IMG/VR virus record: IMGVR_UViG_3300025096_000001
Span: 1 to 64,000 of that record
DNA length: 64,000 bases
Reading direction: 5' to 3' (one strand)
DNA from: a virus
This document shows positions 1 to 49,366 of the stretch, piece by piece; the first letter of the stretch is position 1; each line of letters starts with the position of its first letter. Position numbers and translations under genes: made by a program. The notes below the pieces were generated by a model that was given only the letters and a program-made list of their open reading frames with translations, was not told the DNA's origin and did no database searches.

Positions 1-156
1 ACCAAATCTTAATAGCGCTTTTCCCATTCTGGGCCATCTGTTAGCAGCCTTGTTCAAAATAATGTTTTGGGATAACTCTCCCCACGTACTTGGTTGATCA
101 ACACCTTCTTCGAGAAAGGCGTCCCAGTTATCCATTATGGTTTTCATATCGGGCAT
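1..156 (-). CDS. hypothetical protein, N-terminal 52 codons only (gene runs off the window start)
   Basis: The frame is open from 156 down to base 1. The ATG at 156 has AGGAGA 5 nt upstream. It begins MPDMKTIMDNWDAFLEEG. It is absent from the ORF track because it is truncated. Confidence 0.35.
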   Translation of the reverse strand, partial: MPDMKTIMDNWDAFLEEGVDQPSTWGELSQNIILNKAANRWPRMGKALLRFG

Positions 157-1523: not shown

Positions 1524-3528
1524 CTTGCTCCATTGCTTTTGTTTCAACAGCATTCTGATCTAAGTCACCAATCAGAGTACGAATTGACTCATTAATATTA
1601 AACAGTTTTTGTTCTTCTTTTTGCTCTCTCAAGTTGTAAATAGGCTCCTCATTTTCATAAATACCGACGTTGGCGCCAATTGGTTTTGCTAGAGCAGAAA
1701 TATCTGCGGCGCCGGGAACAATATTTCTTATTCCGGAGCTGCTTTTCTGGCCAGAGGCAGCCTTAAAATTCCTACTACGAGGTCCAGATCCAGCGCGTCT
1801 ATCGTCCTTCTTAGGGTGATATACTTTTCCTTTAGATCCTGGCGTAAGTCTGGGAGCATTTCTTGAGCCGGGAGGTACTGCCAACAATGGCGAGTCATCT
1901 TCTCCGCCGACATCACCGGCCGGCATTTCTTCTGGACCACCTCCAAGATCACCTCCGAGTTCATCGCCACCTAAGTCACCGCCGAGGTCGCCGCCAAGGT
2001 CGCCACCTAAGTCACCGCCCAAGTCGCCACCAAGCCCACCACCGGTTTCTCCGGCTGCCGCAGCCTCTGCGACGGCTTGTAGAGCGGCATCCTGTTTACG
2101 GTCAAAATACATTTCTCTCTGATTACGAACAAAATCTTCATGACTCATGGAGAAAATGTGCTCAGATACCCAGCGACGAGAGAAAAAGCCCTCAGTTGCG
2201 GAGCCGGCAATATCAAATTTCTGTTTCCAGTGTTCCAACTCTTGAAGTTCTGCGATCTTCGAGGGATTGTTTAACTGCAGTTCGAATGATAACAGATCAT
2301 CGCCGCGGAAACCCAAAGTGTAAAGATGGATAATGCCAACCTTTGTTAACTCTGCAATAATGACTCTCTGGAGTCTTTGGATTGTTCTTGCAAAGCGAAT
2401 ATCTTTCTGTGCTAGTGTCGTCTTATCTTCGGCTGCACCCTCACCCATCGCAAGATATGCTTGAGGAATCTTGAGCGCAGAGAACAATTTATCACGCAGG
2501 TATTTAATGTCATCGATTTGCGTAGTGTTTGTACCTCCTGCGAGGTTCTGAATATCTGTTGCTGATCCAGGCCGAACAGGGATGAAATAATCTTCTTCGA
2601 TACTCATTGGATTATAACGTAAGTCAACACGGCCAGTTTTTGCATCAACGACCGAATGTCTCTTAAGTTGTGTGACAATCTTCTCCATGAACTGTTCTAC
2701 TTCATTCGGTGGTACCGCACCAACATCAATTTTGAAAACCCTCCGCTCTGATGAGCGGACAACTCGGTAGGCCATCATTGCGTCTTCCATTAAAACCAGT
2801 TGGCGCCAGATGCGGCGCGCGGGTTCAAGAATAGATGTTCCATATGGGCCATACTTGTCGTTTCCGAGGATGCGAAAATGAGAAATTTGCCAGTTCTCGA
2901 ATGTCATACCAGCAGTGTTCCATTGATATTGTACATAATTGGGATTGGTTGCATCCATTCCTTCTAAGCGCTCTATCTCTTGGGGAGGTAGTGCGATACA
3001 AGAAGTGATTCCAAATTTCTCATCGATGTCGAGATACAAGAAAAAGTCTCCATACTTACACATTGTACGAGACCACCCAAAAAGATTGTATTCTACATTT
3101 AAAATATTTGAGTATAAGATGTTTAAAACAGCCCGGATCTCTTCGTTAGGGCACTTAATGTTTAACATCGGTCGAAGGGCCGAATAGGTTGTCATCTCAT
3201 CCGCATAGATATCCATAGTGGATGCTATCTCTGGCATGTATTCCATTTGGTCAAAATCAATATATCGTTCGGAACGACGTTGGTTTCCGATCGCATTAGC
3301 TGCAATTGTATCCAAAGGGTTGTAGAGCGTTTTCTTAAACTGTTGCCCAGATGCCGAAGAAAATCTACTTGAAAATTTATCAAGATGTTGCCGGCGAATT
3401 CTGCGGCCGGTCTGGGAACGATAATTGATTATCGGTCCCGAGAACAGGCGCGTTAGCCTTTTAAATAATTCGGATTGTTCATTTGCGGGGTTTTTGCCGC
3501 CGGGTATATTTTTTCTTCTGTCTGCCAT
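1501..3528 (-). CDS. portal protein (T7 gp8-type head-to-tail connector family) with a long C-terminal extension
   Basis: 675 aa, immediately downstream of the large terminase. The N-terminal region RSERYIDFDQMEYMPEIASTMDIYADEMT resembles the conserved block of T7-like connector proteins. The C-terminal ~200 aa are low complexity. Confidence 0.8.
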   Translation of the reverse strand: MADRRKNIPGGKNPANEQSELFKRLTRLFSGPIINYRSQTGRRIRRQHLDKFSSRFSSASGQQFKKTLYNPLDTIAANAIGNQRRSERYIDFDQMEYMPEIASTMDIYADEMTTYSALRPMLNIKCPNEEIRAVLNILYSNILNVEYNLFGWSRTMCKYGDFFLYLDIDEKFGITSCIALPPQEIERLEGMDATNPNYVQYQWNTAGMTFENWQISHFRILGNDKYGPYGTSILEPARRIWRQLVLMEDAMMAYRVVRSSERRVFKIDVGAVPPNEVEQFMEKIVTQLKRHSVVDAKTGRVDLRYNPMSIEEDYFIPVRPGSATDIQNLAGGTNTTQIDDIKYLRDKLFSALKIPQAYLAMGEGAAEDKTTLAQKDIRFARTIQRLQRVIIAELTKVGIIHLYTLGFRGDDLLSFELQLNNPSKIAELQELEHWKQKFDIAGSATEGFFSRRWVSEHIFSMSHEDFVRNQREMYFDRKQDAALQAVAEAAAAGETGGGLGGDLGGDLGGDLGGDLGGDLGGDELGGDLGGGPEEMPAGDVGGEDDSPLLAVPPGSRNAPRLTPGSKGKVYHPKKDDRRAGSGPRSRNFKAASGQKSSSGIRNIVPGAADISALAKPIGANVGIYENEEPIYNLREQKEEQKLFNINESIRTLIGDLDQNAVETKAMEQDDENTSQ
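1936..2043 (-). repeat. coding tandem repeat (12-nt unit) specifying GGGL(GGDL)5GGDEL GGDL GGG inside the portal gene
   Basis: I decoded it codon by codon. The units differ at synonymous positions (gcc/acc, gag/aag/taa/caa on the plus strand), so the peptide repeat is preserved while the DNA repeat is degenerate. Confidence 0.9.
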
Positions 3529-3536
3529 TTATTTTC

Positions 3537-5120
3537 TCACTTTATGATCCACTTATGTTGGTTATACAAGTCTTCAGCTTCTTTTATTTTATCAAATGTG
3601 GAGTCTTTTTTGTAGCCATGTTGTCCTTTAATTTGAGTATTCATTGTAGTTTTAGTTTTGATAATCGAACTTAAAAAGGCTTTTTGATAATTTATTTCTC
3701 TGGCATTGGCTTGGAGGGCTGTATCTCTAACCCAACATGCTATCGCTAACGCCATGATTAAATCATCATTGTAGCCCTTCATTGCTTGCGGCTTACCGTT
3801 CCTCCATATAAAAGTCTTCATTTCGTTAACGGTTCGTGAAGAATATAAAGTAATTAGTTTATTTCTAATAAACTCCTCTAATTTTGCTATGATGAGTGGT
3901 CGGGTTTTCATTGACGTTGTGAAGCCGGCTACTGCGGAGGTTCTATATTCTGCTTGGTGCTGCTCAATATATTCATGAGATGATTTAATGGAATGATATA
4001 AATTTGGATACCCGTATTCAATTAACTTATCCAGCACCGTATATCCTATATTGTTATTCTCAACCACCAACATCGCATTACCATATTCGCGGCCGACTTG
4101 ATTTAAAAAGTTGGCGAACATATCTGGGGTGGGCTTTCCTTGGTACTCTGCGATAATCTCAAGGGTTTCTAACTTGATAATATGCAGCGTTGAATAGTCG
4201 GCACCGTCGCCTCGCGACACATCAGCGACTGCAAGATAACTACATGACGCGTCAAATTCTTCCCAGATCCAGAAATTTCGATCAAAACCGGTTCTATATT
4301 TTGGCTCACATATCGTAGATAGCATCCATTTCATACAATCAGGGTCAATAACAGTTTCACCGGAGGTGTTGAAATTGCACTCAAGCTCTTGTGCGATCTG
4401 GCGCCTGGACATATTTCTTGTCTCTTTTTTATACCAAGCTTGATCTCTCTCTGGATGAATGTCCCATGGGAGTGTTGTTAAATTAAAGTTATTCAAGTCT
4501 GTTTCGGCGTCCATGCACGTCTTATGAAACCAATTTCCGACGCCGTTCGGTGTCGATAATGCAATGCAGCGACCACCGGTAGACAGTGTGGGATACAAAC
4601 CAGTCCAAAGTTCTTCTAATCCCTCGATATGTGCAGCCTCATCTAGAACCAACAAAGATAGTGCCTCAGAACGACCAGCATCGCCGGAGGTAGAGGCCGC
4701 CTTGATAGACGACCCATTTGAAAGTTCGAAAGATGTGCGGTTGTCTACTGAAATATCTGATATTTTAAGCCATTGTGGCAGATTGCGCATAATGCTTTTG
4801 ACTTTTTTTACTAAGTTTCCAGCTGTGGCAAACTTGGTTGCCATAACTAAAATCGCTTTATCGCGATGGAACAACATTAACCAAACGATATATCCAGCCG
4901 TAATTGTTGAAATACCAAGCTGTCGCGCTTTTAGAATAATATTAAAGCGATAATCATTAAAATCTTGTAGAAGGTCGTCTTGGAAATCATAAGTATTAAA
5001 AAGGATTAGCCCGTGCATCGGGTGAGATATACGGGCATATGTTTTGAGAAAGTACGAAGGATCCTTACCGCACTTGAGTATTTCTTTTACTTGTTGCTTT
5101 TTGTCTAACTGAAATGTCAT
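3537..5120 (-). CDS. terL: terminase large subunit
   Basis: 527 aa. ATPase motifs are ILKARQLGISTI (Walker A-like) and LLVLDEAAH (Walker B). The C-terminal RNaseH-like nuclease acidic residues are ADVSRGDGADYS, VVENNNIG and NDDLIMALAIA. The gene is adjacent to portal. Confidence 0.9.
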   Translation of the reverse strand: MTFQLDKKQQVKEILKCGKDPSYFLKTYARISHPMHGLILFNTYDFQDDLLQDFNDYRFNIILKARQLGISTITAGYIVWLMLFHRDKAILVMATKFATAGNLVKKVKSIMRNLPQWLKISDISVDNRTSFELSNGSSIKAASTSGDAGRSEALSLLVLDEAAHIEGLEELWTGLYPTLSTGGRCIALSTPNGVGNWFHKTCMDAETDLNNFNLTTLPWDIHPERDQAWYKKETRNMSRRQIAQELECNFNTSGETVIDPDCMKWMLSTICEPKYRTGFDRNFWIWEEFDASCSYLAVADVSRGDGADYSTLHIIKLETLEIIAEYQGKPTPDMFANFLNQVGREYGNAMLVVENNNIGYTVLDKLIEYGYPNLYHSIKSSHEYIEQHQAEYRTSAVAGFTTSMKTRPLIIAKLEEFIRNKLITLYSSRTVNEMKTFIWRNGKPQAMKGYNDDLIMALAIACWVRDTALQANAREINYQKAFLSSIIKTKTTMNTQIKGQHGYKKDSTFDKIKEAEDLYNQHKWIIK

Positions 5121-5674
5121 TACTCATTATCTGATTTTGGTCTCGTGTCGTTATCGGGGCGTGTGCCTCCCTTTCCGTTCCAACCGCCTTGGTCTACAAA
5201 ACTACGCCAGCTTGATTCTACTCGATCTTTCGATTCTGGAGTAACTGACATTTCTTGGTCTAGTCCGCCAACTTTATAATGCATTTTGGCAATTACCCAA
5301 GAGCGTACGCGAGTAGAATTCTCGACACGAATGTCGACTTCATCTTCCGCTGTTAAAGATACTGATTTACCAGTAATCTTTTTATATTCTTTTTGTAGAA
5401 ATTTCACAATTTCAGATAGCTGGCGTTCTACTTCAGTTTCGAAGCCGTTAGCATATACTTCCTTTAAGTGCACATCCGATTGGTATGTTAGGCACATCAT
5501 GTTTCCATAAAACTTGACATTGAAACCATCGTTCACTCTTTTGTCGAGAATCGGATCGCCCTCTTCTCTTTTAAGGCCGGCCAAGAGTGGCTCACCGTTT
5601 TCATCTAACGCTCCATCATAGGCGTTGGCCGCGGCTTGTGAAAGCCCTTGTACTATTTCATAAACTGTTGCCAT
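5120..5674 (-). CDS. hypothetical protein upstream of terL (small-terminase position, no motif support)
   Basis: 184-aa ORF with TAATG overlaps at both ends. I recognise no motif. Confidence 0.4.
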   Translation of the reverse strand: MATVYEIVQGLSQAAANAYDGALDENGEPLLAGLKREEGDPILDKRVNDGFNVKFYGNMMCLTYQSDVHLKEVYANGFETEVERQLSEIVKFLQKEYKKITGKSVSLTAEDEVDIRVENSTRVRSWVIAKMHYKVGGLDQEMSVTPESKDRVESSWRSFVDQGGWNGKGGTRPDNDTRPKSDNE

Positions 5675-5967
5675 TATTCTTGTGCTCCTTTAAGCATTTG
5701 TAAAACTATAGTGTTGATGGCGGCACCTTTAGGGCCGAAAATTGCCTCTAATGCTTGCTTGCGCGCCTGCGGAGAGACCTTGGGACTTAGCAAGACTCTC
5801 TTGAGCATGGTGGCATATTGTTCGACATCCATAAGGCCGCCCGATGTAGTTGCAGCGTCCACTTTTTGCTGGCGTGCGTCGGTAGCGCTAGCTGCCGGTG
5901 CTGGGGCTTGTTCTTCTCCTAAGCTCTCACGAATAATTTGCTTGAGTATTTCTTTATTTAGTTTCAT
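5674..5967 (-). CDS. leader class A small protein (MKLNKEILKQIIRESL...)
   Basis: The ORF track gives 5674..6090. The internal ATG at 5967 has GGAGA upstream and recreates the conserved leader found on five other genes. The longer form would overlap the upstream gene by about 137 nt. Confidence 0.65.
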   Translation of the reverse strand: MKLNKEILKQIIRESLGEEQAPAPAASATDARQQKVDAATTSGGLMDVEQYATMLKRVLLSPKVSPQARKQALEAIFGPKGAAINTIVLQMLKGAQE

Positions 5968-7302: not shown

Positions 7303-7746
7303 TTATTCCTTTTTCTTTTTTTTGCCTGCTTTGGACATTTGTTTATCAGCTACGCCATAAGCCTGATCTTCAGGTACACCCTTGTCTATAAGGTATTCGG
7401 CGCGCTCTTCTTTTGCTTTGTAAAAGGACTTTTTATATTTCTCTTCTTCTTCAATTGTACGTAGTTCTTGTACTATTGCATCGACTATCTCGTTCATGCG
7501 CGATGGGTCGTTCAATGGATGTTCTTTTTTTGGCTTAATTACTTTCGCAAAGCGCCCCAATGCGCCTTGGGCATATCCCAAAGCCGCAGGGCTTTCTCCC
7601 GTAACTGCGCCGGCTAAATAATCTATACTAACATCTAGATTATCAATTTTGCTAGCCAAATTATTAATTGCCATCATCAGCGAAGAATCGAGATTCCCCA
7701 ACTCTTCTGTTATAATTTCTTTTATTTTGGACTTCGTAAGCTTCAT
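7303..7746 (-). CDS. leader class A protein (MKLTKSKIKEIITEEL...), Lys-rich C-terminus
   Basis: The ORF track gives 7303..7824. The ATG at 7746 has AAGGGAA upstream, removes the overlap with 7763..8212 and restores the family leader. Confidence 0.65.
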   Translation of the reverse strand: MKLTKSKIKEIITEELGNLDSSLMMAINNLASKIDNLDVSIDYLAGAVTGESPAALGYAQGALGRFAKVIKPKKEHPLNDPSRMNEIVDAIVQELRTIEEEEKYKKSFYKAKEERAEYLIDKGVPEDQAYGVADKQMSKAGKKKKKE

Positions 7747-7762: not shown

Positions 7763-8212
7763 TCATGTCCTATAGGTTTTTGCAAAGATTTCTCTACCAA
7801 CCACCCCATAGTCGCCCGGGCCATATTGTACTAAATAGTCTCCCGGCTCTCCTTGGAGTAAATCATTTGACCACGATACTTTAACTTGGAATGGGTCGCT
7901 CATTTCTTTGGCAAATACCGGTATGTTTTTCTTCGCCGCTGTTCCATCACCAAGGTCGTCGTATGTTTGCGCGAACTTCTCGGCTGGGATCGGCCACTGC
8001 TCGCCTTCCGTGCCTGTCATAACAGCATCGCCGGCTTTTGCTCCCACTGAACCTTCCTTGGTTTCGATGGTTTCGTCCGTCTCGGCGTATCTAAATTCTA
8101 ATGGAATAGGTTTCTTGGCGGTTTGAAAGCCATCTTGGGACAAGTCAGGGTTGTCTTCTAACCCAACTGTCTCATTCAAATACCTGTTCCAACTTTCAAA
8201 TAGTTTTTTCAC
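7763..8212 (-). CDS. leader class B protein with C-terminal PGDYG-type motif
   Basis: GTG start at 8212 (plus strand cac). It begins MKKLFESWNRYLNE. The C-terminus GEPGDYLVQYGPGDYGVVGREIF resembles the PGDYG domain family. That domain assignment is from memory and was not searched. Confidence 0.55.
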   Translation of the reverse strand: MKKLFESWNRYLNETVGLEDNPDLSQDGFQTAKKPIPLEFRYAETDETIETKEGSVGAKAGDAVMTGTEGEQWPIPAEKFAQTYDDLGDGTAAKKNIPVFAKEMSDPFQVKVSWSNDLLQGEPGDYLVQYGPGDYGVVGREIFAKTYRT

Positions 8213-8214: not shown

Positions 8215-8523
8215 CTAATACCCTGCATCGTATGGTGATTCGTCTTCATACCAATCGTGTGAGCCAAAATCTCTGCGGCCTATTTCATCCGATAGATCTC
8301 GATGCATCTCTTCGGTGTCGTGATACACGGTAGTTTCTCCATTTTGATGTGTTACCAAAATGGCAGGCTTTCCATCACTATCGATCTCAACGGATGCCTC
8401 GACATTAAACTTGTCAGCCAAGTCTTGCACTTCATCACGCATAAGATCTTCTTTAATAATATCTGTTTTCTCGTCCATAAAATACCGAGGGTCAATTCTT
8501 TTTTTGTTTTTTCTTATAGCCAT
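8215..8523 (-). CDS. hypothetical acidic protein
   Basis: 102 aa. AAGGAA lies 7 nt upstream of the ATG at 8523. Confidence 0.5.
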   Translation of the reverse strand: MAIRKNKKRIDPRYFMDEKTDIIKEDLMRDEVQDLADKFNVEASVEIDSDGKPAILVTHQNGETTVYHDTEEMHRDLSDEIGRRDFGSHDWYEDESPYDAGY

Positions 8524-8538: not shown

Positions 8539-8564
8539 ATGTTGCTAATCCATTCATACTTAGT
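8539..8564. repeat. 26-bp direct repeat, copy 2 (25/26 identical to 9062..9087)
   Basis: The plus strand reads atgttgCtaatccattcatacttagt. It lies in the gap between genes 8560..9063 and 8215..8523 and contains the stop codon of the former. Confidence 0.9.
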
Positions 8565-9063
8565 TTTCCCATCCGTAATCACGACGAGCGTTTGGGTCAC
8601 TATATGGTGGGGGGTTATACATACTTTCATCCCAGTTTCCAGTAGCAATAGCATACCAATTGCCGCGCTTGCCAAGTTTGCGAAAGTGAGCGAGTAGCGG
8701 ATTTTGTTCAAGAGCATCTGCTAAATTATTAAAAAGTTGAGTATATTGTTCTTTGAGTTCTTCCGGGACTGAGGATAGGAACTTTCCGGCTCGCAAATCT
8801 GTGGCGAGGGATTTTGCTGCGGCCGGTGCTTTGTCGCGATGAATTGGACGGCCGCGGCCACCGGTGGGGCCGCGAGAATAAGCTGCAAACCACTTGGTAA
8901 AGTGTTCGCCAATCCGACTATTAACATCAACATTCGACTCGTTTGGTTCTGGTTCTGGATCAGAAGGACCCATACTTCTTTCCAGTCCGCGAGTTAGACG
9001 AGGATCTGGTTCGTATTCTGCTTCGTTTAAGTGCTTTCGCCAATTTTCAAATAGTTTCTTCAT
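8560..9063 (-). CDS. leader class B protein (MKKLFENWRKHLNE...)
   Basis: The ORF track gives 8560..9147. The ATG at 9063 forms an ATGA overlap with the FtsZ-like stop and restores the class B leader. Confidence 0.65.
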   Translation of the reverse strand: MKKLFENWRKHLNEAEYEPDPRLTRGLERSMGPSDPEPEPNESNVDVNSRIGEHFTKWFAAYSRGPTGGRGRPIHRDKAPAAAKSLATDLRAGKFLSSVPEELKEQYTQLFNNLADALEQNPLLAHFRKLGKRGNWYAIATGNWDESMYNPPPYSDPNARRDYGWEN

Positions 9064-10212: not shown

Positions 10213-11277
10213 TTATTCTGCGGCCTTTTTGGCTCTAGTAAATGTAGGTGCAAAGTTTAACTTACCACCAGCAAAATCATCTTTAACTGCACTGAAATCT
10301 GGGCCGCCCTTATCTGGATCAAACTGTGGCATGATTTCTCTTGGTGGGCCTTCGCTAGAATACTTTTGTGCGAGGGCGCCGCAGTTGTCAGCAATCTCAG
10401 CACAAGCTCCGACTACAAGCCTTTCCTTTCTCTTGCCAAGTTTGCCGCCAGGTGTGGTCAATTCTTGAACTTGTTCTGCTTCCTCTTCGGGAGCCGAACC
10501 TTGGAAGCCCTTGACAGGTTTGCCACCTGTTCCCTGTCCATATCCTGTGTTTCCTATAACCGCTATAACTTTAGGGTTCATAAAGCTGCCACCCGATTTA
10601 GGGTCCATAACTTTTCCAACATTGGATAAAAGTGCTTGCTCAACTTGTTCTCTATCCATCGCACTTGATCCGATAATGCTTCGGCCTTTCTTAGCTGATG
10701 CTGACGGGATCGCTTTGCCGGCGCCAAGATATGCTGCAATTGCCAATTGGCTAACTAAAAGCGCTTTGCCTGGATCCATTACAATTACATTGGCAGGAAT
10801 TTTACAATTGGTGTTAAAAACAGTTGCGCCGGACCACCTATGGTGACCATCAATAATATAATATGTACCACCGTTTCCGGCTACAAGAATAGGTGGAGCG
10901 GCCGAAGTACCAGCGATAACAGCTTGCAAGCCTTTAGCATTAGAACCATTAAAACCTACAGACTTAAACAAATCGATGACGCCCTGAGTTGGCACTAGTT
11001 GAGGTGCGGGAATAGTTTGCCCCATAGCAACTTTGATTACCTCGTCAGAAGGCTTTGCATCTTCGTCACCAAGTTTAAGAAGCGCCCTTACTGCTGGGCT
11101 TGCGCCTTCAGGCGTGTTTAATTTTGCAACTAGTTGCGCTAAGGGTTGATTAAAATTACCAGCATCTGCTGCATCAATAAGTGGTGCAATGTTCTGTGCT
11201 AACCATTGTGCTGCTTGTTCTTCTGTTTCTATATCTTCGTTTACGAACTTTTTCCAGTTTTCCATTAGTAATTTCAT
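10213..11277 (-). CDS. ParB/Srx-fold (ParB N-terminal-like) domain protein carrying a class B leader
   Basis: GGTYYIIDGHHRWSG (nt 10834..10851 encode DGHHRW) matches the ParB-like nuclease/Srx motif. The upstream LVPTQGVIDL block is consistent with it. The ATG at 11277 (AGGAGA 9 nt upstream) is preferred over the TTG at 11286. It begins MKLLMENWKKFVNE. Confidence 0.6.
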   Translation of the reverse strand: MKLLMENWKKFVNEDIETEEQAAQWLAQNIAPLIDAADAGNFNQPLAQLVAKLNTPEGASPAVRALLKLGDEDAKPSDEVIKVAMGQTIPAPQLVPTQGVIDLFKSVGFNGSNAKGLQAVIAGTSAAPPILVAGNGGTYYIIDGHHRWSGATVFNTNCKIPANVIVMDPGKALLVSQLAIAAYLGAGKAIPSASAKKGRSIIGSSAMDREQVEQALLSNVGKVMDPKSGGSFMNPKVIAVIGNTGYGQGTGGKPVKGFQGSAPEEEAEQVQELTTPGGKLGKRKERLVVGACAEIADNCGALAQKYSSEGPPREIMPQFDPDKGGPDFSAVKDDFAGGKLNFAPTFTRAKKAAE

Positions 11278-11290: not shown

Positions 11291-14200
11291 CTACTGGTTT
11301 ACTCTTGCATATCCGTCTTTCTTTTCGATTACGACTTGCATATCAACACAGTCTTTGAGCGAATCAAGGTGTGAGATAAGTAAGACATTCTTGAAATACA
11401 CTTTAATTAGTTCCAAGATACGAATAAATCCCTCCATATTTTCTTCATCTAATGCTGTCCCGGGTTCGTCAAGGATAAACACATCCGATTTTGGAAGAGA
11501 AGAGACACTTAAGAGCGATAACCGGATGGCCATGGCCGCCATCGTCTTCTCCGCCCCTGACGCCATTTCAATCGGGCGCTCATCATAAAGCGGGTGTTTA
11601 ATAAAAATATCAAACTTATTTCCGAAACTTTCAAAGAAAATCTCAAAATCCACAATATTTGCTAGCACTTTAGCAATTTCTTGATTGATCACTGGTATCT
11701 TCTTTTTGATTACATCGTATGCTATTCCATTAGGATGCATAGCTTGCATAAACAGATCGTAGGCTGCATATGAATTTTGTAAGTCGACATATTCTTTTTT
11801 CTGTTCTTGCAAGGTTTCTATCTTCTGCTCACAAGAACCTATCATTTTTACAACCTCAAGAGTGTCGGACTCGCAAGATTCAAGTTCACTTGATAGGGTG
11901 CCGATCTGTTTATTGAAATCGGTTCGCATTGTCATAAGTTCTTCAAGGTTTTCGATTGCATCTTTGTTGTCATCATATTTTTTAATTAACTCTGTGATCT
12001 CTCTTAATTCAAGCTCTGTTCTGGTTAAAGAATTCTTATTTCTTTCTCTAGCGAGCTTAATATTAGACAACTCCTTTTCAGCAACCGACAACTCGGAAGC
12101 AATTGATTCATACCTTATTAGATTGCTTTTGTTCTGTTCTGGCTTAAGTTCATCAAGCTTGTTCTCTGTCGTCTTTAATGTGGTAACATCGTTTTTTCTA
12201 TCTTTAGACGCGGCATGAGCATCTTTAACAAAGGTGTTCTCGCTGCAATATTTACAATCTGGATCGTACTTGTGATCCTTCAGCATTTTAATCTTTTTGT
12301 CCGCTTCGCCTATGCTGCGATTCAAAAGAGATATGTTTTGCTTTACTTTGTCGATCGTAGACTTATCTTTTAATAATTTCTCTAAATCTACAGATTCTAA
12401 AATCTTATTCAAATTAATTATTTTGATCTGTTTTAGCTTTGCTATAGTGTTTTGTTCAGAGATCGTGCTAGCCAAGGAGACCAGCATACGAGATTTACTT
12501 TTTTGTTGTTCTCTTACATTTCTAATGTCGATAAGTTCTGCTGGAATCGTTGAGATCTGTTCGTCAACCAAGGTTAGGGACGTCTTTGTTGCTTCGATCT
12601 TATTTTTGAGCAACTCACAGACCGTCTTATTGTTTTCAGACTTTTGTACTTGCTGTAGCAGGGCTAACTTCGATTCTTCTATTTCTTCGCCATAATCTCG
12701 ATTTTGGTGCTTCTTAATTAGAACCTTGGCTTCGATAGAGTCATCTTTGGCCATTTTAAATTTCTTTTCAAAAATCTCCAAATCTAAAAACTTTGCAATA
12801 ATTTCTTTTCGGCGGGTGGAACCTTCGTCAATGAAGGCCAATGAGCCGTGCTGTGAAGCCAACGAAGATACCATAAAGTCGTCCATAGTGCCAAAGTGCT
12901 TACGAATATTTGCATCTGTCTGATTGCGTGTGGTCCCATTAAGTGAAACCGTCTCATCCGTAAGCGGATCGTATACTTCGAAGTTGAGATCTGTTTTAGC
13001 TTCTAAGGTTTCTTCCCCCTTCAAACGCTTGACATATTTCTTTGATTCTCTTTCAATGGTATATGTTTTATTATTACACTCAATTGTTAGTTTACCTCTA
13101 CCGAGGTCTCTATTCTGATTGATGACATTGAGGTTCTTTCGTTCATTTTTTGAAGTTGTATTAAATAAAGTATAAAGAGCAGCGTCAATAATGGAACTTT
13201 TACCGCTAAAGTTTTTTCCGAAAATCCCAATAATACCATTAAGAGAACTAAAATTGACAGCATTGTCTTCACCATAATTAAAAAGATTATCAAACTCAAA
13301 ATTTGTTAGCTTCCAATTAACATTGCGCGAGACTTCTTCTTTCTCTTCGATGATTTTGTTGTAAGTACGATTTAACTCATAAACTTTTTCCATAGTGTCA
13401 GAGGGCACCTGATGGTCTTTAAGGTACTCTGAAATAAGCTCTTCTTGGATCTTTGGGTCTCGCAAGTTTTCAGTCTTGAGGCCGTCTGTGATTTCTTCTA
13501 CATTTCCGCGTTCACCGCTAGCGCGATTTAAAAACGATATAGATTCGGGCTTGAATCTAGACTTAGCAATATCCATTGCTCGCTTCATTACATTGAGCGG
13601 CAAGTTGTTAGTGCTGACTAAACGAAGGCGCGCGTTTTCTGGTACTTCAATTTTTCTTGGCATGCGGCCGCGGAGTGTCAACGGGATAGTGAAAAAGGGT
13701 TTGGGGTTTTGTAACACAATCGGTTCAATATCCCACTCATCCTTTGATTTAATATCCCATATAAGAATGCCCTTGTCGTTAGTTTCACCGTGATTCTGTT
13801 GGACCGTTGAGCCGGCATACCAAATGCGGCCGGCGTCATCTAAGAATTGGCGCCTGTGAATATCGCCAAGCATTGCAAAATCAAAATCATCAAAGATTGT
13901 GATCTCGTCTTCGCCAAAACTCATTGTCCAGTTAGTGTCTGTTTTACAGCGACTAATAGAGCCGTGGTAAAGAGCAATGTTGATCTTATCCGGATTACTT
14001 GGCTTTAGCCACTGTTCTCGATCAAAGACCGACAGAACATTCAAACAGAAGTCATCATTTAGATGCGTTTCTCCTGAGTCCTTGAGCAAGTGCAGCCTAG
14101 GAAGGTTTAACGCATCTACGATGGGTGTAAGCGCATCTTGGCGGCTACTATTCTTTAGATTGCCGTCGTGGTTGCCCAAGATAATATATGTTGGTGCAAT

Positions 14201-14407
14201 CTCTGCTAAACTGCGAAAGAAGTCAGAACACATCTCGACAAACTCAGGTGAGATTTGTGTCTTCGTGTGTGCAATGTCTCCGCAGTGAACAATGTAATCA
14301 ACTTCTTGTTCTCGTAAGGTTTTGTATAACTGCTCAAAAACAATTCTGTATTCATAATGATACTTCAAATTTTTGATATGAGTGTCGCTAATATGTGCAA
14401 ATTTCAA
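11291..14407 (-). CDS. single-chain Mre11/SbcD-like nuclease fused to Rad50/SbcC-like ATPase
   Basis: - The N-terminus has calcineurin-like phosphoesterase motifs HISDTH, HCGDIAH, GNHDGN and LGDIHRRQ.
- Walker A is GIFGKNFSGKSS at about residue 400.
- A long coiled coil carries a central CKYC hook-like CxxC at about residue 717 (nt 12245..12265).
- The signature motif is SGAEKT, Walker B is VFILDEPGTALD, and LLISHL follows.
- The start is TTG at 14407, with GGAGG 5 nt upstream. The first motif begins at residue 5. Confidence 0.85.
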   Translation of the reverse strand: MKFAHISDTHIKNLKYHYEYRIVFEQLYKTLREQEVDYIVHCGDIAHTKTQISPEFVEMCSDFFRSLAEIAPTYIILGNHDGNLKNSSRQDALTPIVDALNLPRLHLLKDSGETHLNDDFCLNVLSVFDREQWLKPSNPDKINIALYHGSISRCKTDTNWTMSFGEDEITIFDDFDFAMLGDIHRRQFLDDAGRIWYAGSTVQQNHGETNDKGILIWDIKSKDEWDIEPIVLQNPKPFFTIPLTLRGRMPRKIEVPENARLRLVSTNNLPLNVMKRAMDIAKSRFKPESISFLNRASGERGNVEEITDGLKTENLRDPKIQEELISEYLKDHQVPSDTMEKVYELNRTYNKIIEEKEEVSRNVNWKLTNFEFDNLFNYGEDNAVNFSSLNGIIGIFGKNFSGKSSIIDAALYTLFNTTSKNERKNLNVINQNRDLGRGKLTIECNNKTYTIERESKKYVKRLKGEETLEAKTDLNFEVYDPLTDETVSLNGTTRNQTDANIRKHFGTMDDFMVSSLASQHGSLAFIDEGSTRRKEIIAKFLDLEIFEKKFKMAKDDSIEAKVLIKKHQNRDYGEEIEESKLALLQQVQKSENNKTVCELLKNKIEATKTSLTLVDEQISTIPAELIDIRNVREQQKSKSRMLVSLASTISEQNTIAKLKQIKIINLNKILESVDLEKLLKDKSTIDKVKQNISLLNRSIGEADKKIKMLKDHKYDPDCKYCSENTFVKDAHAASKDRKNDVTTLKTTENKLDELKPEQNKSNLIRYESIASELSVAEKELSNIKLARERNKNSLTRTELELREITELIKKYDDNKDAIENLEELMTMRTDFNKQIGTLSSELESCESDTLEVVKMIGSCEQKIETLQEQKKEYVDLQNSYAAYDLFMQAMHPNGIAYDVIKKKIPVINQEIAKVLANIVDFEIFFESFGNKFDIFIKHPLYDERPIEMASGAEKTMAAMAIRLSLLSVSSLPKSDVFILDEPGTALDEENMEGFIRILELIKVYFKNVLLISHLDSLKDCVDMQVVIEKKDGYARVNQ

Positions 14408-14443
14408 TGGTCCCTCCAGACATAAGTGTGCTTCTACTATACA

Positions 14444-14472
14444 AGTATATCTCGTTTAATGAGGGATGTCAA
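14444..14472 (-). promoter_or_regulatory. sigma70-type promoter upstream of the Mre11-Rad50 gene
   Basis: The minus strand reads cTTGACAt, then 17 nt, then TATACT, about 37 nt upstream of the TTG start. Confidence 0.6.
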
Positions 14473-14480
14473 GTGTTTTT

Positions 14481-14729
14481 TTATCTGAGTGCGTCGATCA
14501 TTTCTTGAATCTTGCGGAGTGGCTCTGCCAAGTCGGCTCTGTCATTCCCTTCGAGATACAGAATAACATCCTTAAGGCGAGCACCTGCCTGAGCATGCTC
14601 AGAAGCGTCTCCTTCTGGTCCGGTGACGATTGCTTCATCGCCATGGCCGCCGATGTCTGTATCAACAATACCCTCAGAAGCAACTTCTTCCATAATAATT
14701 TTTCTAAGTTGTTCTTTTGTGATCTTCAT
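14481..14729 (-). CDS. leader class A small protein (MKITKEQLRKIIMEEV...)
   Basis: The ORF track gives 14481..14774. The ATG at 14729 has GGGAGA 5 nt upstream and restores the family leader. Confidence 0.7.
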   Translation of the reverse strand: MKITKEQLRKIIMEEVASEGIVDTDIGGHGDEAIVTGPEGDASEHAQAGARLKDVILYLEGNDRADLAEPLRKIQEMIDALR

Positions 14730-14770
14730 TTTTATCTCCCAACACTCAAACTGAGTGCTTGTTTTTGTGG

Positions 14771-15373
14771 TCACACGTGTTCTTCATCTTCTTCTTTTTC
14801 TTCTAAAAAGAATTCGTTATCGCCATCAAACCTATCGAGCTTTTGACGCTGCGCGTGGCGCTCATCTTCATAGTCCTTATAATCTAAGTCGAATTCTTTC
14901 ATAATCTTGAACAATTCTTGATCAAGCTTGACAGCCATTCTACGTATTCTACGTCCCTCAGTTTTTCGATCAAACGACTGAAGATCCAAATCTGCTGTAT
15001 ATCCGGTAAATTTATTAAACAACATACCCCACTGTTCGATCTTTCTTTTGAATGCATCGTATCTTTCGACTGGGATCTTTAATTCGGCGCCTTCTTCAAG
15101 ACCATAATCGCCTTCAATGTTTTCTTGTGAGGCATCCATTAAACTAGCGACCATATTAGCCAGCTGTTGTAGCTCTTCTGGGTCCTGGGGGTCCAAGTCG
15201 ACAACCAGTTTCATAAGTTCTGCTCTAACAGACTCTGGACGCGATGCTATACCGTGAGAGGACATTGTCTTTGCGGCGGGCATCATTGATAAATGCGCGC
15301 CGTGGCCCTCTTCTATAATATTTCGAATCTCTTCTTTAAGCAGTTGTGTAAGTTGTTGTTTTGTGATTTTCAT
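14771..15373 (-). CDS. leader class A protein (MKITKQQLTQLLKEEI...), acidic C-terminus
   Basis: 200 aa. Its first 24 nt are identical to those of gene 15385..15630. Confidence 0.7.
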   Translation of the reverse strand: MKITKQQLTQLLKEEIRNIIEEGHGAHLSMMPAAKTMSSHGIASRPESVRAELMKLVVDLDPQDPEELQQLANMVASLMDASQENIEGDYGLEEGAELKIPVERYDAFKRKIEQWGMLFNKFTGYTADLDLQSFDRKTEGRRIRRMAVKLDQELFKIMKEFDLDYKDYEDERHAQRQKLDRFDGDNEFFLEEKEEDEEHV

Positions 15374-15384
15374 TTTATTTTTCC

Positions 15385-15630
15385 TTAATTATATTCTATT
15401 TCAACTTCTTTATCTTTCAGAAACGCGGTGGCTTCGCCCATCGCTTTGTCCCAATCAATATAATCATCGGCATCGACATAATTATCTTCAATAAATTCCC
15501 AACCCAGAGACTTTGCATAATCGATAAGCTCTTGTGCATCTCCGCTATAAGTAAATACCTCACGTTCGTTCAAAACCTTTCCAATCTCTTCTTTAATGAT
15601 CTGTTTAAGTTGTTGTTTTGTGATTTTCAT
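15385..15630 (-). CDS. leader class A small protein (MKITKQQLKQIIKEEI...)
   Basis: 81 aa with the family leader. The SD is weak (TAAGAA). Confidence 0.7.
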   Translation of the reverse strand: MKITKQQLKQIIKEEIGKVLNEREVFTYSGDAQELIDYAKSLGWEFIEDNYVDADDYIDWDKAMGEATAFLKDKEVEIEYN

Positions 15631-15642
15631 ATTCTTATTACT

Positions 15643-16101
15643 TTACTTAGTGTTGTTAAGGGCGTTCTTCGCGATCAATACTCCAAGAGCCATCAACAGC
15701 GGGCCGCCCACTATCCCCAGTGCTGCAGCTGCTGGGTTAGCAGCCAGCCATGGCAAGAACTCTACAGCAAAAACAGAAGTGGGAGAAGAGGCAATAAGGC
15801 TGGCGATAGCTATTGTTCCGCCACCTATCATCGCAGTTTTTGCTGTGTTTAAATCTTGGGCGGAGCGATCATAAGTTTCGCCTAGGTTACCCTCTTCCAT
15901 AGCAGCCGCCAATATTGCTGCCAATTCAGGGTCCTGTGATAACTGTTGTACCGTGTTCATAACAACTTCTGATTGGCCTAATGCGTCGGCAACATCAGCG
16001 ATCGCCTGTGGATTCTCGCCGGATGCTGGGTTGTCTTCAGATAAGGCTGCTTCTAATTCTTCTTTGATTATTTTTTTAAGTTCTGAGCGCGCGACTTTCA
16101 T
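15643..16101 (-). CDS. leader class A protein with C-terminal hydrophobic (membrane-like) segments (MKVARSELKKIIKEEL...)
   Basis: 152 aa. AGGAGAAG lies 5 nt upstream. The C-terminus has GGGTIAIASLIASSPTSVFAV and AAAALGIVGGPLLMALGVLIA. Confidence 0.7.
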   Translation of the reverse strand: MKVARSELKKIIKEELEAALSEDNPASGENPQAIADVADALGQSEVVMNTVQQLSQDPELAAILAAAMEEGNLGETYDRSAQDLNTAKTAMIGGGTIAIASLIASSPTSVFAVEFLPWLAANPAAAALGIVGGPLLMALGVLIAKNALNNTK

Positions 16102-16112: not shown

Positions 16113-17051
16113 CTATATTGCCGATAATAAATCTAATAATAAATAGTCGTCGTTATCGATAAATACAGCATTGTTTTTTCTTTCTTCAAATATGCTCTTT
16201 GGCATCGAACCTACATCTTCGTATCCGGCGACATCGATCTTATAAAGTTCGATATCATATTTAAGCAACGTCTTAATAACCCGACGCTCTTTGTCTGCGG
16301 CATCTGGGTCGAGGGCAATGAAGACTGGGGTGTCGTTTTTAACGATTTCTCGTATAAGTTCGGAGTCAGACCGTAATGTTGAACCCAATATAGGAACAGC
16401 GTTTCCTGCGACCAGTGCATCAAAAATTCCCTCTACTATGGTTAAATCTTTATTCCAGTCGATATATAGGTGGTTAAAAATTATATTCTTCGAAGCTTTG
16501 GGGTTTTTATATTTATAAGAATCTCCGGAATATGATCGACCAACAAAGTAATTCACATCGCCGTCATTATCAAAGGACGGAAAAATAATTCTATTTCTAT
16601 ATTCGCCGCTGAAGCAATATCCTATCTTCCATCGTATGATATCGTCTTTCGTAATGCCGCGGGATTCTAAATAGCGCAAAGCATATAAGCCCGTGGCGGG
16701 TATGTTGCTGTGACAAAGGCTTACGAATTCTGACGGGAGTTCGAGTTTCTGCGGGCTTTCTCCAGACTCTGGTGCCATAAAGAGGTCAGCAAATCTTTCA
16801 AGATCTGACCGGTTTGTAATTGCGTCCCATTTCTGTAGTTGTGTATACGAACCAAAACGCCTAACAACACGCCTAATATTACGACCGCGATAATCGCAAA
16901 CCCAACACTTATAAGCATTTTTATCCAAGTTAACTGAGAACTTACGCTTGTGGTGATTGCATGCCGGACACGCGAAAAGTAATTCGTTGCCTTTGTCTGA
17001 GTAGTGCCCAAGCGTTTCATACAGGATCTTCTTTGCTTCTTTTCTGTTCAT
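16113..17051 (-). CDS. DNA primase (DnaG/T7 gp4-type zinc finger plus Toprim, no helicase domain)
   Basis: - The zinc finger is CPACNHHKRKF...CWVC.
- RYLESRGI, RIIFPSFD and YKYKNPKAS are primase core-like blocks.
- The Toprim motifs are IVEGIFDAL and IALDPDAAD. Confidence 0.85.
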   Translation of the reverse strand: MNRKEAKKILYETLGHYSDKGNELLFACPACNHHKRKFSVNLDKNAYKCWVCDYRGRNIRRVVRRFGSYTQLQKWDAITNRSDLERFADLFMAPESGESPQKLELPSEFVSLCHSNIPATGLYALRYLESRGITKDDIIRWKIGYCFSGEYRNRIIFPSFDNDGDVNYFVGRSYSGDSYKYKNPKASKNIIFNHLYIDWNKDLTIVEGIFDALVAGNAVPILGSTLRSDSELIREIVKNDTPVFIALDPDAADKERRVIKTLLKYDIELYKIDVAGYEDVGSMPKSIFEERKNNAVFIDNDDYLLLDLLSAI

Positions 17052-17540: not shown

Positions 17541-17576
17541 AAAACAAAACAAGCCCTCGTTTACCGAGGGCTTGTT
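17541..17576 (-). terminator. intrinsic terminator after the FKBP gene
   Basis: The minus-strand RNA is AACAAGCCCUCG-GUAAA-CGAGGGCUUGUU followed by UUGUUUUG. The stem is 12 bp (17548..17576). Confidence 0.8.
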
Positions 17577-18741: not shown

Positions 18742-18776
18742 TTTATTTCTCCTTTTTATCATTGTTAGTATAAAAT

Positions 18777-49000: not shown

Positions 49001-49366
49001 CTAAATAGTAATTTGTAATAAATCTTTGCTTCCTAATCTCGGAATTGAGTATGTGATTCTCATACTCAGTGTATTATTATCAGATGATGATTCAGCAAAT
49101 TGAATATCTAGTATGCTTATGGAGGGCATGTACTTTGCTGCTTGTTCTCGTATTTTGGAGGAGATAAGGCTCCGGGAATCGCTTGAAAAATTGTTGAATA
49201 AATATTGTTTTATTCCTACTCCAAAGTTAGGTTCCATCACTCTTTCCCCAGGATTAGTCAAAATTAAAGTTTTAAAATTTTGTTTTAGAGCGCGCTTGGG
49301 GGAATAGTTTAAAGTAAAACCATCGCGATCATCGGCAGTTATTGGTAGAGATAAATTAATGGCCAT
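49001..49366 (-). CDS. baseplate wedge protein, GPW/gp25 family
   Basis: 121 aa. ILTNPGERVMEPNFGVGIKQYLF is the hallmark GPW_gp25 block. Confidence 0.75.
   Translation of the reverse strand: MAINLSLPITADDRDGFTLNYSPKRALKQNFKTLILTNPGERVMEPNFGVGIKQYLFNNFSSDSRSLISSKIREQAAKYMPSISILDIQFAESSSDNNTLSMRITYSIPRLGSKDLLQITI

What the first reader, a model, noticed from the sequence alone, without database searches (positions are those of the whole stretch)
14481..16101. Tandem array of four genes sharing a 16-residue N-terminal leader that is conserved at DNA level while the protein bodies are unrelated
Four consecutive minus-strand genes begin with near-identical leaders:
- MKVARSELKKIIKEEL (start 16101)
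- MKITKQQLKQIIKEEI (start 15630)
- MKITKQQLTQLLKEEI (start 15373)
- MKITKEQLRKIIMEEV (start 14729)
After the leader they diverge completely. They are 152, 81, 200 and 82 aa, and one has membrane-like C-terminal segments.
The leader is also conserved in the DNA. Plus-strand 15350..15373 and 15607..15630 are identical 24-mers (aagttgttgttttgtgattttcat). About 43 of the first 48 coding nt match between those two genes. The 14729 copy differs at 2 of those 24 positions. I cannot align anything after codon 16 by eye.
A shared 5-prime module on unrelated bodies suggests leader-mediated recombination or gene conversion, or strong selection on a targeting or interaction peptide. It does not look like ordinary tandem duplication.
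Basis: seen in the sequence. Interest (0 to 1): 0.8.

Follow-up and report, generated by a model that had tools for sequence, protein, structure and literature searches.

The report
Shared capsid-address tag on diverse phage proteins
Four neighbouring genes of an uncultured marine T4-like phage share a 16-residue N-terminal helix on unrelated proteins; it most likely works like T4's capsid-targeting propeptide, which the head protease removes, and it marks thousands of candidate packaged proteins in ocean viruses.

Summary
Four consecutive minus-strand genes (152, 81, 200 and 82 aa) begin with MK[IV][TA][KR]xxLxx[IL][IL]xEE[ILV] and then diverge. Profile comparison of two of the body families finds homology only in residues 1-18.

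- two further copies of this leader;
- four genes with a second leader (MKxLFENWRKxLNE);
- one gene with a third.
All lie in the first 16 kb, next to the terminase and portal genes.

The leader is virus-specific and very common: more than 120 viral contig stretches and 9,814 protein clusters. Conservation is at the peptide level; synonymous codons vary.

The phage belongs to a distant T4-like lineage with a gp20 portal, gp23 capsid protein and gp21-type prohead protease. The best-conserved leader residues, I12-x-E14, fit that protease's L/I-x-E cleavage rule. Four further points agree:
- leader genes often flank the protease gene;
- internal leaders in polyproteins are preceded by a second hydrophobic-x-E site;
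- homologous cargo carries different leader types;
- cargo bodies under-use [LI]-x-E relative to [LI]-x-D.

Best reading (about 0.6): a capsid-targeting, protease-removed propeptide, as on T4 internal proteins. No proteomic data exist. I rate it a new variant of a known kind.

The parts
15643..16101 (-). Leader gene A, 152 aa. Type-1 leader MKVARSELKKIIKEEL (16054-16101), acidic body, hydrophobic C-terminal segments.
15385..15630 (-). Leader gene B, 81 aa. Type-1 leader MKITKQQLKQIIKEEI (15583-15630).
14771..15373 (-). Leader gene C, 200 aa. Type-1 leader MKITKQQLTQLLKEEI (15326-15373), about 70-aa low-confidence insert, then the widespread 'AELKIPVERYDAFKRKIEQW' cargo domain (residues 92-196).
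14481..14729 (-). Leader gene D, 82 aa. Type-1 leader MKITKEQLRKIIMEEV (14682-14729), linker, then a helical-hairpin body.
7303..7746 (-). The body is homologous to leader genes in related contigs.
5674..5967 (-). Sixth type-1 leader gene (variant MKLNKEILKQIIRESL), 97 aa.
10213..11277 (-). Type-2 leader gene, 354 aa (MKLLMENWKKFVNE).
8560..9063 (-). Type-2 leader gene, 167 aa (MKKLFENWRKHLNE).
7763..8212 (-). Type-2 leader gene, 149 aa, GTG start (MKKLFESWNRYLNE).
8215..8523 (-). Type-3 N-terminus gene, 102 aa (MAIRKNKKRIDPRYFMDEKTDIIKEDL). In relatives the same body occurs behind a type-2 leader.
1..147 (-). First 49 codons of a 195-aa type-2 leader gene (MKTIMDNWDAFLEE) that runs off the window. 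In a 98%-identical contig it is followed by a small membrane protein and the gp21-type prohead protease.
1501..3528 (-). T4 gp20-type portal protein.
   Evidence: PF07230, E=1.6e-74
3537..5120 (-). T4-type large terminase subunit.
16113..17051 (-). DnaG-type primase, upstream boundary of the four-gene slot.
11291..14407 (-). Fused Mre11/Rad50-like nuclease-ATPase, downstream boundary of the slot.
14444..14472 (-). Best sigma-70-like site of the region (TTGACA-17-TATACT, 11/12), directly after gene D and ahead of the Mre11/Rad50 gene. Consensus match only.
17548..17576 (-). Terminator-like hairpin (12-bp stem plus T run) upstream of the primase unit that ends with the four leader genes. The palindromic stem is also listed on the + strand.

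Best explanation
The shared leader is a detachable N-terminal address tag. It is an amphipathic helix of about 16-22 residues that recruits otherwise unrelated small proteins into the scaffolding core of the assembling prohead. The phage's gp21-type prohead protease then cuts it off after Glu14 at the conserved I-x-E. This is how the capsid-targeting sequence (CTS) of T4 internal proteins works. The tagged genes would therefore encode prohead-core or internal head proteins. Some are probably delivered into the host with the DNA. What each cargo does is unknown.

Three interchangeable leader types are attached to a fast-turning-over, shuffled set of cargo domains. These sit in variable slots of a conserved genome backbone near the head genes.

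Shown here: the leader family, its peptide-level conservation, its modular exchange, the protease and capsid gene families, and the sequence signatures of cleavage sites. Inferred: physical packaging, cleavage and ejection.
For: (1) The lineage has the T4 head system. The window holds a gp20 portal and a T4-type TerL. Related leader-bearing loci hold Peptidase_S77 proteases (E=8e-27 to 3e-36) and Gp23 capsid proteins (E about 1e-73 to 1e-76). A contig 98% identical to the window's genome continues into the protease, scaffold and gp23 genes.

(2) Protease specificity looks conserved. T4 gp23's cleavage site FLTE65|A aligns with QLLKE|A, QVLRE|A and QIVSE|A in the lineage and in phage immuto. 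The conserved protease blocks GEL(N/D)HP and G(V/I)SSRG are kept. gp21 cuts after Glu at L/I-X-E (PMC9026906).

(3) The most conserved leader residues are I12 (92%) and E14 (96%), with a variable residue 13, in a set not constrained at those positions.

(4) Position. In many loci the leader genes lie between the portal block and the protease, directly after the protease (three in tandem in L022), or after the capsid gene. This is the place of T4 core genes 67 and 68. In the window all 11 tagged genes lie within the first 16.1 kb next to TerL and portal. None lies in the other 48 kb.

(5) Polyproteins. 94 of the 269 proteins fetched in the searches carry two or more leader modules. Internal leaders are preceded by hydrophobic(-6)-x-E(-4). 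The residue at -6 is hydrophobic in 72% of cases given E(-4), against a 29% background (p=2e-13). So the leader is bracketed by two candidate cleavage sites. Twenty-two internal copies have no possible start codon.

(6) Cargo bodies show no excess of [LI]-x-E (ratio 1.01), while [LI]-x-D, [LI]-x-K and E-x-[LI] are enriched 1.34-1.42 fold. The window's untagged proteins show the reverse. Asp instead of Glu blocks processing in T4.

(7) Leaders are interchangeable on homologous cargo.

(8) AlphaFold models of C and D show a leader helix, a low-confidence linker, then a separate body.

(9) Precedent. T4 internal proteins have 10-19-residue CTS propeptides and are highly diverse, with only the CTS conserved.

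(10) The leader is virus-specific.
Against: There is no proteomic or experimental evidence that any tagged protein is in a prohead or virion, or is cleaved.

Hydrophobic-x-Glu is a short motif that amphipathic helices produce easily.

The leader has no significant sequence similarity to T4's CTS or core proteins; the best hit is gp67 IDLIKEEK at E=0.46.

The cargo is mostly acidic (median pI 4.7), whereas T4-type internal proteins are described as basic (PMC9026906).

The four genes of the finding sit between primase and a recombination nuclease, apparently at the end of a primase transcription unit. No recognisable late promoter is present, so their timing is unknown.

Some tagged proteins are unexpected passengers. 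Gene A has membrane-like segments, and some type-2 cargo are P-loop kinases.

The body-motif test shows a relative, not absolute, depletion: about one [LI]-x-E remains per body.

The junction statistics use cluster representatives that are not phylogenetically independent.
Confidence: 0.6

Rival explanations
1. The leader is a shared protein-protein interaction helix unrelated to the capsid. It would dock many small effectors onto one common partner, such as a host protein, the phage tubulin or a chaperone like the nearby Hsp20, and it is not proteolytically removed.
For: The leader is an amphipathic helix set apart from the body by a flexible linker. The four window genes lie among replication genes, not head genes. 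The cargo is acidic and small, like many early host-takeover proteins. A tubulin gene is part of the same backbone region.
Against: This does not explain the second hydrophobic-x-E site just upstream of internal leaders. It does not explain the relative avoidance of [LI]-x-E in bodies, the recurrent placement next to the prohead protease, or the resemblance to the capsid protein's own maturation site. Three unlike leader sequences would all have to bind the same partner.
Confidence: 0.2
2. The leader is mainly a DNA-level recombination cassette. A conserved 5' segment would promote shuffling and gene conversion among neighbouring genes, with no specific peptide function.
For: The adjacent genes B and C share 43/48 nt and 11/12 codons, with random similarity on both sides. 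Co-resident leaders share codons more often than leaders from different loci, 66% against 55%. Leaders and cargo domains are demonstrably exchanged.
Against: Across 351 copies every degenerate position uses several codons while the residues are kept. About one third of synonymous sites differ even within a locus. Internal in-frame copies without a start codon keep the peptide. Three different leader sequences serve the same cargo. Homology may help shuffling, but it cannot be what maintains the sequence.
Confidence: 0.05
3. The genes are ordinary tandem paralogues whose bodies diverged beyond recognition while a structurally important N-terminal helix stayed conserved.
For: Small helical phage proteins diverge fast. 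Two body pairs reach z about 3 in pairwise alignment.
Against: Profile-profile comparison of the C and D families without leaders gives 0.1% probability. 345 bodies form 235 BLAST clusters, and only 9 of 522 within-locus pairs share a cluster. The predicted folds differ. The same cargo domain occurs behind different leader types.
Confidence: 0.05
4. The genes are precursors of ribosomally made, post-translationally modified peptides. The conserved leader would be recognised by a maturase such as the radical SAM/SPASM enzyme encoded in the window.
For: A conserved leader on hypervariable cores in tandem arrays is the classic layout of such precursors. A radical SAM + SPASM gene lies at 62733-63803.
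Against: The enzyme is 47 kb away, beside sugar-metabolism genes. It has no homologue in any of the 120 leader loci. The bodies are 60-350 aa folded domains rather than short cores. Some bodies are enzymes.
Confidence: 0.03

Closest known systems
Capsid-targeting sequence (CTS) propeptides of phage T4 internal proteins IPI, IPII, IPIII and Alt
   Same: Both are short N-terminal propeptides (10-19 aa in T4, about 16-22 here) that end in hydrophobic-x-Glu. Both sit on mature parts that are otherwise unrelated and turn over fast. Both occur in a phage with a gp21-family prohead protease, gp20 portal and gp23 capsid protein. Both have hydrophobic residues three and four positions before the x-Glu (from memory, T4 has Y4, F7, I8, E10; here L8, I11, I12, E14).
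   Different: There is no significant sequence similarity to the T4 CTS. The leader is longer. At least three leader types are used in one genome. Far more genes are tagged: 11 in 16 kb here against a handful in T4. The cargo is mostly acidic rather than basic. Polyproteins with internal, doubly flanked leaders exist. Packaging and cleavage have not been demonstrated.
T4 prohead core proteins gp67, gp68 and scaffold gp22 (substrates of gp21)
   Same: The genomic position is the same, between portal and protease and between protease and capsid gene. Both are acidic. T4 gp22 starts MLKEQLIAE|A and gp67 contains DLIKEE, which resemble the leader.
   Different: The T4 core proteins are conserved single-copy genes cut into many fragments. 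Here the bodies are highly diverse and carry few internal sites.
Propeptide-bearing inner-body and ejection proteins of giant phages phiKZ, 201phi2-1 and SPN3US
   Same: Many head-internal proteins are processed after Glu at a three-residue motif by a diverged gp21 homologue. Propeptides carry redundant cleavage sites.
   Different: Those phages use S/A-X-E. No common, sequence-recognisable leader shared across unrelated proteins has been described for them in the papers read here.
Leader peptides of modified-peptide precursors (for example Nif11-type leaders on variable cores)
   Same: One conserved leader on many hypervariable downstream sequences, often in tandem arrays.
   Different: There is no linked maturase. 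The cargo are folded domains and enzymes. Cleavage-site signatures match the phage head protease. The context is a virus head module.

Membership tests
T4-type CTS-tagged internal/core head proteins | The phage encodes a gp21-family (Peptidase_S77) prohead protease with gp20 portal and gp23 capsid protein. | tested here: met
   Portal PF07230 is in the window. Peptidase_S77 and Gp23 are in leader-bearing relatives. The protease, scaffold and gp23 lie on a contig 98% identical to the window's genome.
T4-type CTS-tagged internal/core head proteins | Short N-terminal propeptide ending in L/I-X-E. | tested here: met
   I12 is 92% and E14 is 96% conserved with variable residue 13 in an unconstrained set of 180 copies. 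Type 2 ends L-x-E. The rule comes from PMC9026906.
T4-type CTS-tagged internal/core head proteins | Conserved leader on otherwise unrelated mature proteins. | tested here: met
   235 body clusters from 345 bodies. hhalign gives body-only 0.1% and full-length 95% over residues 1-18 only.
T4-type CTS-tagged internal/core head proteins | Sequence homology of the leader to the T4 CTS or T4 core proteins. | tested here: not met
   In 40 kb of T4 that includes genes 20-24 and alt, the leader profile's best hit is gp67 at E=0.46. ipI-III were not in the stretch examined.
T4-type CTS-tagged internal/core head proteins | Basic, DNA-associated mature proteins. | tested here: not met
   Median body pI is 4.7, 85% are below 7 and only 9% are above 9.
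T4-type CTS-tagged internal/core head proteins | Protein physically present in prohead or virion, with the propeptide removed by the protease. | not testable with these tools
   This needs virion proteomics or protease assays. No such data were found for the cultured relatives.
T4-type CTS-tagged internal/core head proteins | Ejection into the host with the DNA. | not testable with these tools
   Experimental only.
Modified-peptide (RiPP) precursors | Leader-recognising maturase encoded with the precursors; short core peptide. | tested here: not met
   The radical SAM/SPASM gene is 47 kb away and has no homologue in the 120 loci. The bodies are 60-350 aa.
Ordinary tandem paralogues | Homology detectable along the proteins by sensitive comparison. 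| tested here: not met

The most novel reading that the evidence does not exclude
The three leaders are sequence-readable packaging tags. They would define a very large, previously unrecognised repertoire (about 10^4 protein clusters) of capsid-loaded proteins in abundant marine T4-like phages. Many of these would be injected into the host. The repertoire includes polyproteins that the head protease cuts into several cargoes by excising the tag on both sides. If so, the set of proteins that ocean phages inject could be catalogued from sequence alone, and the tag could be used to load foreign proteins into these capsids.
Probability: 0.4. Interest if true: 0.8.

Novelty: new variant of a known kind. 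Interest (0 to 1): 0.65.

Why it matters
Proteins that phages carry inside the capsid and inject with their DNA act before any phage gene is expressed. In T4 they include inhibitors of host restriction systems. They are hard to recognise from sequence because only a very short tag is shared.

Here the tag is long and conserved enough to be searched for. That turns an anonymous mass of small marine viral genes of unknown function into a defined, testable class. It also gives a cultured entry point, Flavobacterium phage immuto. The polyprotein forms and interchangeable tags would show how such a repertoire is built and renewed.

If the packaging reading is wrong, the result still stands that about 10,000 viral protein clusters share an exchangeable N-terminal module of unknown purpose.

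Tried and rejected
- Pfam and PHROGs on the four proteins gave nothing meaningful.
- PHROGs on ten neighbouring proteins gave nothing.
- Megablast of the region and tblastn of gene B or of a consensus leader against deposited phages found no match. A 16-residue motif is below tblastn's reach there.
- Literature string searches for the leader found only unrelated papers. Searches for a marine or metagenomic description of CTS-like tags found none. No proteomics paper for immuto or Mel-JY01 was found.
- I could not reach the head genes beyond the window start by protein look-up or viral contig scans. The single metagenome scan succeeded.
- T4 late-promoter motif TATAAATA gave 13 hits against about 6 expected, scattered on both strands, so it is not informative.
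- Sigma-70-like sites overall are at chance level, 25 against 25.
- Foldseek of the gene C model against viral structures had a best E of 0.28, so no functional hint. The gene D hairpin was not searched, because a two-helix model would match non-specifically.
- A Shine-Dalgarno origin for the junction motif before internal leaders was considered. It can explain Glu/Gly/Lys/Arg at -5/-4 but not the position-specific hydrophobic residue at -6.
- The RNA or translation-initiation element reading was rejected, because synonymous sites vary and internal copies lack start codons.
Full report
OBSERVATION

The four minus-strand ORFs exist as described. Gene A is 16101-15643 (152 aa), B is 15630-15385 (81 aa), C is 15373-14771 (200 aa) and D is 14729-14481 (82 aa). 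They carry the leaders MKVARSELKKIIKEEL, MKITKQQLKQIIKEEI, MKITKQQLTQLLKEEI and MKITKEQLRKIIMEEV.

A degenerate DNA pattern for the leader has 3 matches in the window at up to 3 mismatches, against 0.00 expected from shuffles.

B and C share 43 of the first 48 nt and 11 of 12 codons at shared residues. The 40 nt upstream (17 matches) and the next 48 nt (16 matches) are at random level.

Pairwise body alignments are at noise level: z is below 1.2 in 13 of 15 pairs and about 3 in two. I collected homologues of C (112) and D (44) and compared family profiles. Without leaders hhalign gives 0.1% probability. With leaders it gives 95%, aligned over residues 1-18 only. Only this one pair, the closest by pairwise score, was tested with profiles.

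THE WINDOW HOLDS MORE

Relaxing the motif reveals two more copies:
- MKLTKSKIKEIITEEL, starting at 7746 (147 aa);
- MKLNKEILKQIIRESL, starting at 5967 (97 aa).

A second N-terminal type, MKxLFENWRKxLNE, heads four genes. They start at 11277 (354 aa), 9063 (167 aa), 8212 (GTG start, 149 aa) and 147 (a 195-aa gene that runs off the window).

A third type, MAIRKNKKxIDPRYFMDEKTxI[IV]KE[ED]L, heads the gene at 8523.

All eleven genes lie below position 16.1 kb, on the same strand as the terminase and portal genes and next to them. None lies in the other 48 kb.

HOW WIDESPREAD, AND AT WHAT LEVEL CONSERVED

The leader pattern hit more than 120 stretches of viral contigs, where the scan stopped at its limit. 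These hold 372 leader ORFs, and 100 of the 121 sources have two to ten copies.

The same pattern hit only 8 stretches on 5 MAG contigs in 596 Gb of cellular genomes. Several of those carry 2-4 clustered copies, as expected for mis-binned phage DNA.

An exhaustive profile search of 1.84 billion cluster representatives found 9,814 clusters at E<=0.001. A strict type-2 pattern hit 72 viral stretches. Of the 70 newly fetched loci, 33 also carry type 1.

Every degenerate codon position in the leader uses several codons. In 180 copies constrained only at residues 1-8, I11 is kept in 86%, I12 in 92% and E14 in 96%, while residue 13 varies. Selection therefore acts on the peptide.

Co-resident leaders share codons somewhat more often (66%) than leaders from different loci (55%) or than local codon usage predicts (45.5%). 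This allows some duplication or conversion but does not explain the conservation.

Bodies are diverse. 345 bodies form 235 BLAST clusters, and only 9 of 522 within-locus pairs share a cluster. They are mostly acidic, with median pI 4.7.

WHAT KIND OF VIRUS

There is no close relative among deposited phages. The window has a T4 gp20-type portal (E=1.6e-74), a T4-type large terminase, a gp25 baseplate wedge protein, a tubulin homologue, a fused Mre11/Rad50, a DnaG-type primase, Hsp20 and FKBP.

The nearest cultured phages are Flavobacterium phage immuto and Microcystis phage Mel-JY01, with portals about 39% identical. Gene C's exact product occurs on a 195 kb contig.

72 of the 120 loci share the window's backbone, with portal up to 85% identical. 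In them, leader genes fill variable slots between conserved genes:
- primase to Mre11/Rad50 (the slot of the finding, holding one to six leader genes in relatives);
- Mre11/Rad50 to tubulin;
- tubulin to a conserved small-gene block;
- just upstream of TerL;
- downstream of the portal block.

LINK TO HEAD MATURATION

Immuto's annotated head module runs TerL, portal, three hypothetical proteins, 'prohead core protein serine protease', a scaffold-like gene, then gp23. Its protease finds homologues (44-53% identity) in 21 leader loci. Pfam confirms Peptidase_S77 and Gp23.

Leader genes lie in three places relative to these genes:
- between the portal block and the protease (L011, L049, L061, L066, L068, L075, L079);
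- directly after the protease (three in tandem in L022; also L051 and L006);
- after the capsid gene (L033).

In T4 the order is 20, 67, 68, 21, 22, 23, so these are the positions of the T4 prohead-core genes.

A contig 98% identical to the window's genome over the 697-bp overlap continues from the window's edge. It runs through the 195-aa type-2 gene, a small membrane protein, the protease, a leader-like 141-aa gene, the scaffold and gp23.

T4 gp23's maturation site FLTE65|A aligns with QLLKE|A, QVLRE|A and QIVSE|A. The conserved protease blocks are retained. From memory, these blocks hold the catalytic His and Ser.

According to PMC9026906 and PMC3012670:
- gp21 cuts after Glu at L/I-X-E;
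- T4 internal proteins carry 10-19-residue N-terminal CTS propeptides that bind the core and are then removed;
- targeting depends on CTS residues 4 and 7, and processing on residues 8 and 10;
- Asp at position 10 blocks processing;
- the internal proteins are highly diverse, with only the CTS conserved.

The leader's I12-x-E14, and the L12-x-E14 of type 2, fit this rule.

INDEPENDENT SEQUENCE SIGNATURES

First, many proteins carry 2-4 leader modules in one reading frame. Among 134 internal copies, Glu is at -4 in 51%. Given that Glu, the residue at -6 is hydrophobic in 72% of cases, against a 29% background (p=2e-13), and no other upstream position is enriched.

A ribosome-binding site embedded in fused genes could explain purine-rich codons at -5/-4, but not the residue at -6. 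Twenty-two internal copies have no possible start codon. Internal leaders are thus bracketed by two candidate cleavage sites, as expected for an excised propeptide.

Second, in 437 bodies [LI]-x-E occurs at the shuffled expectation (ratio 1.01). Meanwhile [LI]-x-D (1.34), [LI]-x-K (1.36) and E-x-[LI] (1.42) are enriched. In the window's untagged proteins [LI]-x-E is 1.24 and [LI]-x-D is 1.08. This is a relative avoidance only.

Third, leaders are exchangeable. The C-terminal domain of gene C (AELKIPVERYDAFKRKIEQW...) follows type 1 directly in 72 homologues. It follows type 2 in 9 (P0272 at 90% identity). The remaining 31 carry other N-termini, including type 3 followed by an extra domain. Further swaps appear.

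Fourth, AlphaFold models show a leader helix (5-24 in C, 5-18 in D), a low-confidence linker, then different helical bodies. Mean pLDDT is 66.7 for C and 77.4 for D.

CAVEATS

- Nothing shows physically that these proteins enter capsids or are cut.
- The motif is short.
- The leader is not significantly similar to T4 sequences.
- The cargo is acidic, unlike T4's basic internal proteins.
- The four genes of the finding appear to end a primase transcription unit, between a terminator-like hairpin at 17548-17576 and a sigma-70-like site at 14444-14472.
- Late-promoter motifs were uninformative.
- Some cargo are unexpected: membrane-like segments in gene A, and AAA_33/zeta-toxin-like kinases behind type 2.
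- Cargo function remains unknown.

COMPARISON AND VERDICT

Functionally this is closest to the T4 CTS system. It meets the testable defining features: the protease family, the L/I-x-E propeptide, and unrelated mature parts. It fails on leader homology and on cargo charge. The physical features could not be tested.

I therefore describe it as working like a CTS system and as a new variant of that kind, not as a proven member. The differences are a longer and different tag, three interchangeable tags, a massive expansion, polyproteins with doubly flanked tags, and acidic cargo.

No description of this leader was found in the searchable literature.

A cultured phage, immuto, carries a short form of the leader on genes 175, 176 and 190 (MKKSQLRQIIKEAL..., domain E=4e-8). 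That makes the hypothesis directly testable.

Noticed in passing
window 9060-10202 (-) and 10213-11277 (-): A tubulin/FtsZ-family gene (PF00091, E=1e-9) is a conserved backbone gene of this lineage, seen in 23 of the 120 loci. The adjacent 354-aa type-2-leader protein contains a 'DGHHRW' string that looks ParB/sulfiredoxin-like by eye, but Pfam found nothing for it.
   Followed up: partly
window 1501-3528 (-), C-terminal third of the portal: Beyond the gp20 domain the portal has a long extension. It contains a run of GGDL repeats (GGLGGDLGGDLGGDLGGDLGGDLGGDELGGDLGG) followed by a basic, Ser/Gly-rich tail.
   Followed up: no
window 33279-45185 (-) and 49389-55832 (-): Two giant ORFs of 3,968 and 2,147 aa sit in the tail/baseplate region near a gp25 wedge gene (49001-49366). 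They were not annotated.
   Followed up: no
window 60191-63803 (-): A cluster of UDP-glucose/GDP-mannose dehydrogenase, glycosyltransferase-like and radical SAM + SPASM genes. None has a homologue near leader arrays in other loci.
   Followed up: partly
window 11291-14407 (-): Mre11-like phosphoesterase and Rad50/SMC-like ATPase are fused into one 1,038-aa protein. The fusion is conserved in at least 31 related loci.
   Followed up: partly
window 17592-18155 (-) and 18256-18762 (-): The phage encodes an FKBP-type peptidyl-prolyl isomerase and an Hsp20 small heat-shock protein side by side.
   Followed up: no
P0127-P0269 (for example P0132, P0159, P0172, P0150): Polyproteins with 2-4 leader-plus-cargo modules in one frame. 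Some internal leaders lack Met (for example ...EGKTKITKSQL..., ...RENKITKSKL...). The junction consensus is hydrophobic-x-E-[NSG]-K-(M)KITK.
   Followed up: yes
L140 (Flavobacterium phage immuto MW353176) 1659-2234, 2245-2724, 12553-13311, 13371-15896: A cultured phage carries a two-residue-shorter form of the leader on hypothetical proteins 175, 176 and 190 (MKKSQLRQIIKEAL, MKKSQLREIIRKEL, MKKSELVKLIKEEL). An internal copy lies in the 841-aa protein 191.
   Followed up: partly
L144 (reverse strand) 561-902; L022 1115-1420; L127 10379-10654: A small conserved membrane protein with a CPxC-type motif (LFHCPMCMGFHVGWF) sits just upstream of the prohead protease region in several members of the lineage.
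   Followed up: no
L144 (reverse strand) 1605-2030; L022 3969-4370; L033 3292-3738: A conserved gene directly after, or near, the protease starts with an expanded leader-like helix (MKKSELKQLIKPLVKECIHEVLLEEG). It is possibly a core protein related to the type-1 leader.
   Followed up: no
window 14771-15373 (-), residues 92-196 of gene C: The 'AELKIPVERYDAFKRKIEQWGMLFNKF' domain is a widespread cargo module (112 homologues). It has 26 invariant positions and no structural or family match.
   Followed up: partly
L126 (GCA_002719355.1, binned as Euryarchaeota), L133/L137/L138 (305.8 kb contig binned as Methylococcaceae), L134/L136 (101 kb contig binned as Halobacteriovorax): Large contigs carrying leader arrays are deposited inside cellular MAGs of unrelated taxa. 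They are most likely mis-binned phage genomes.
   Followed up: no
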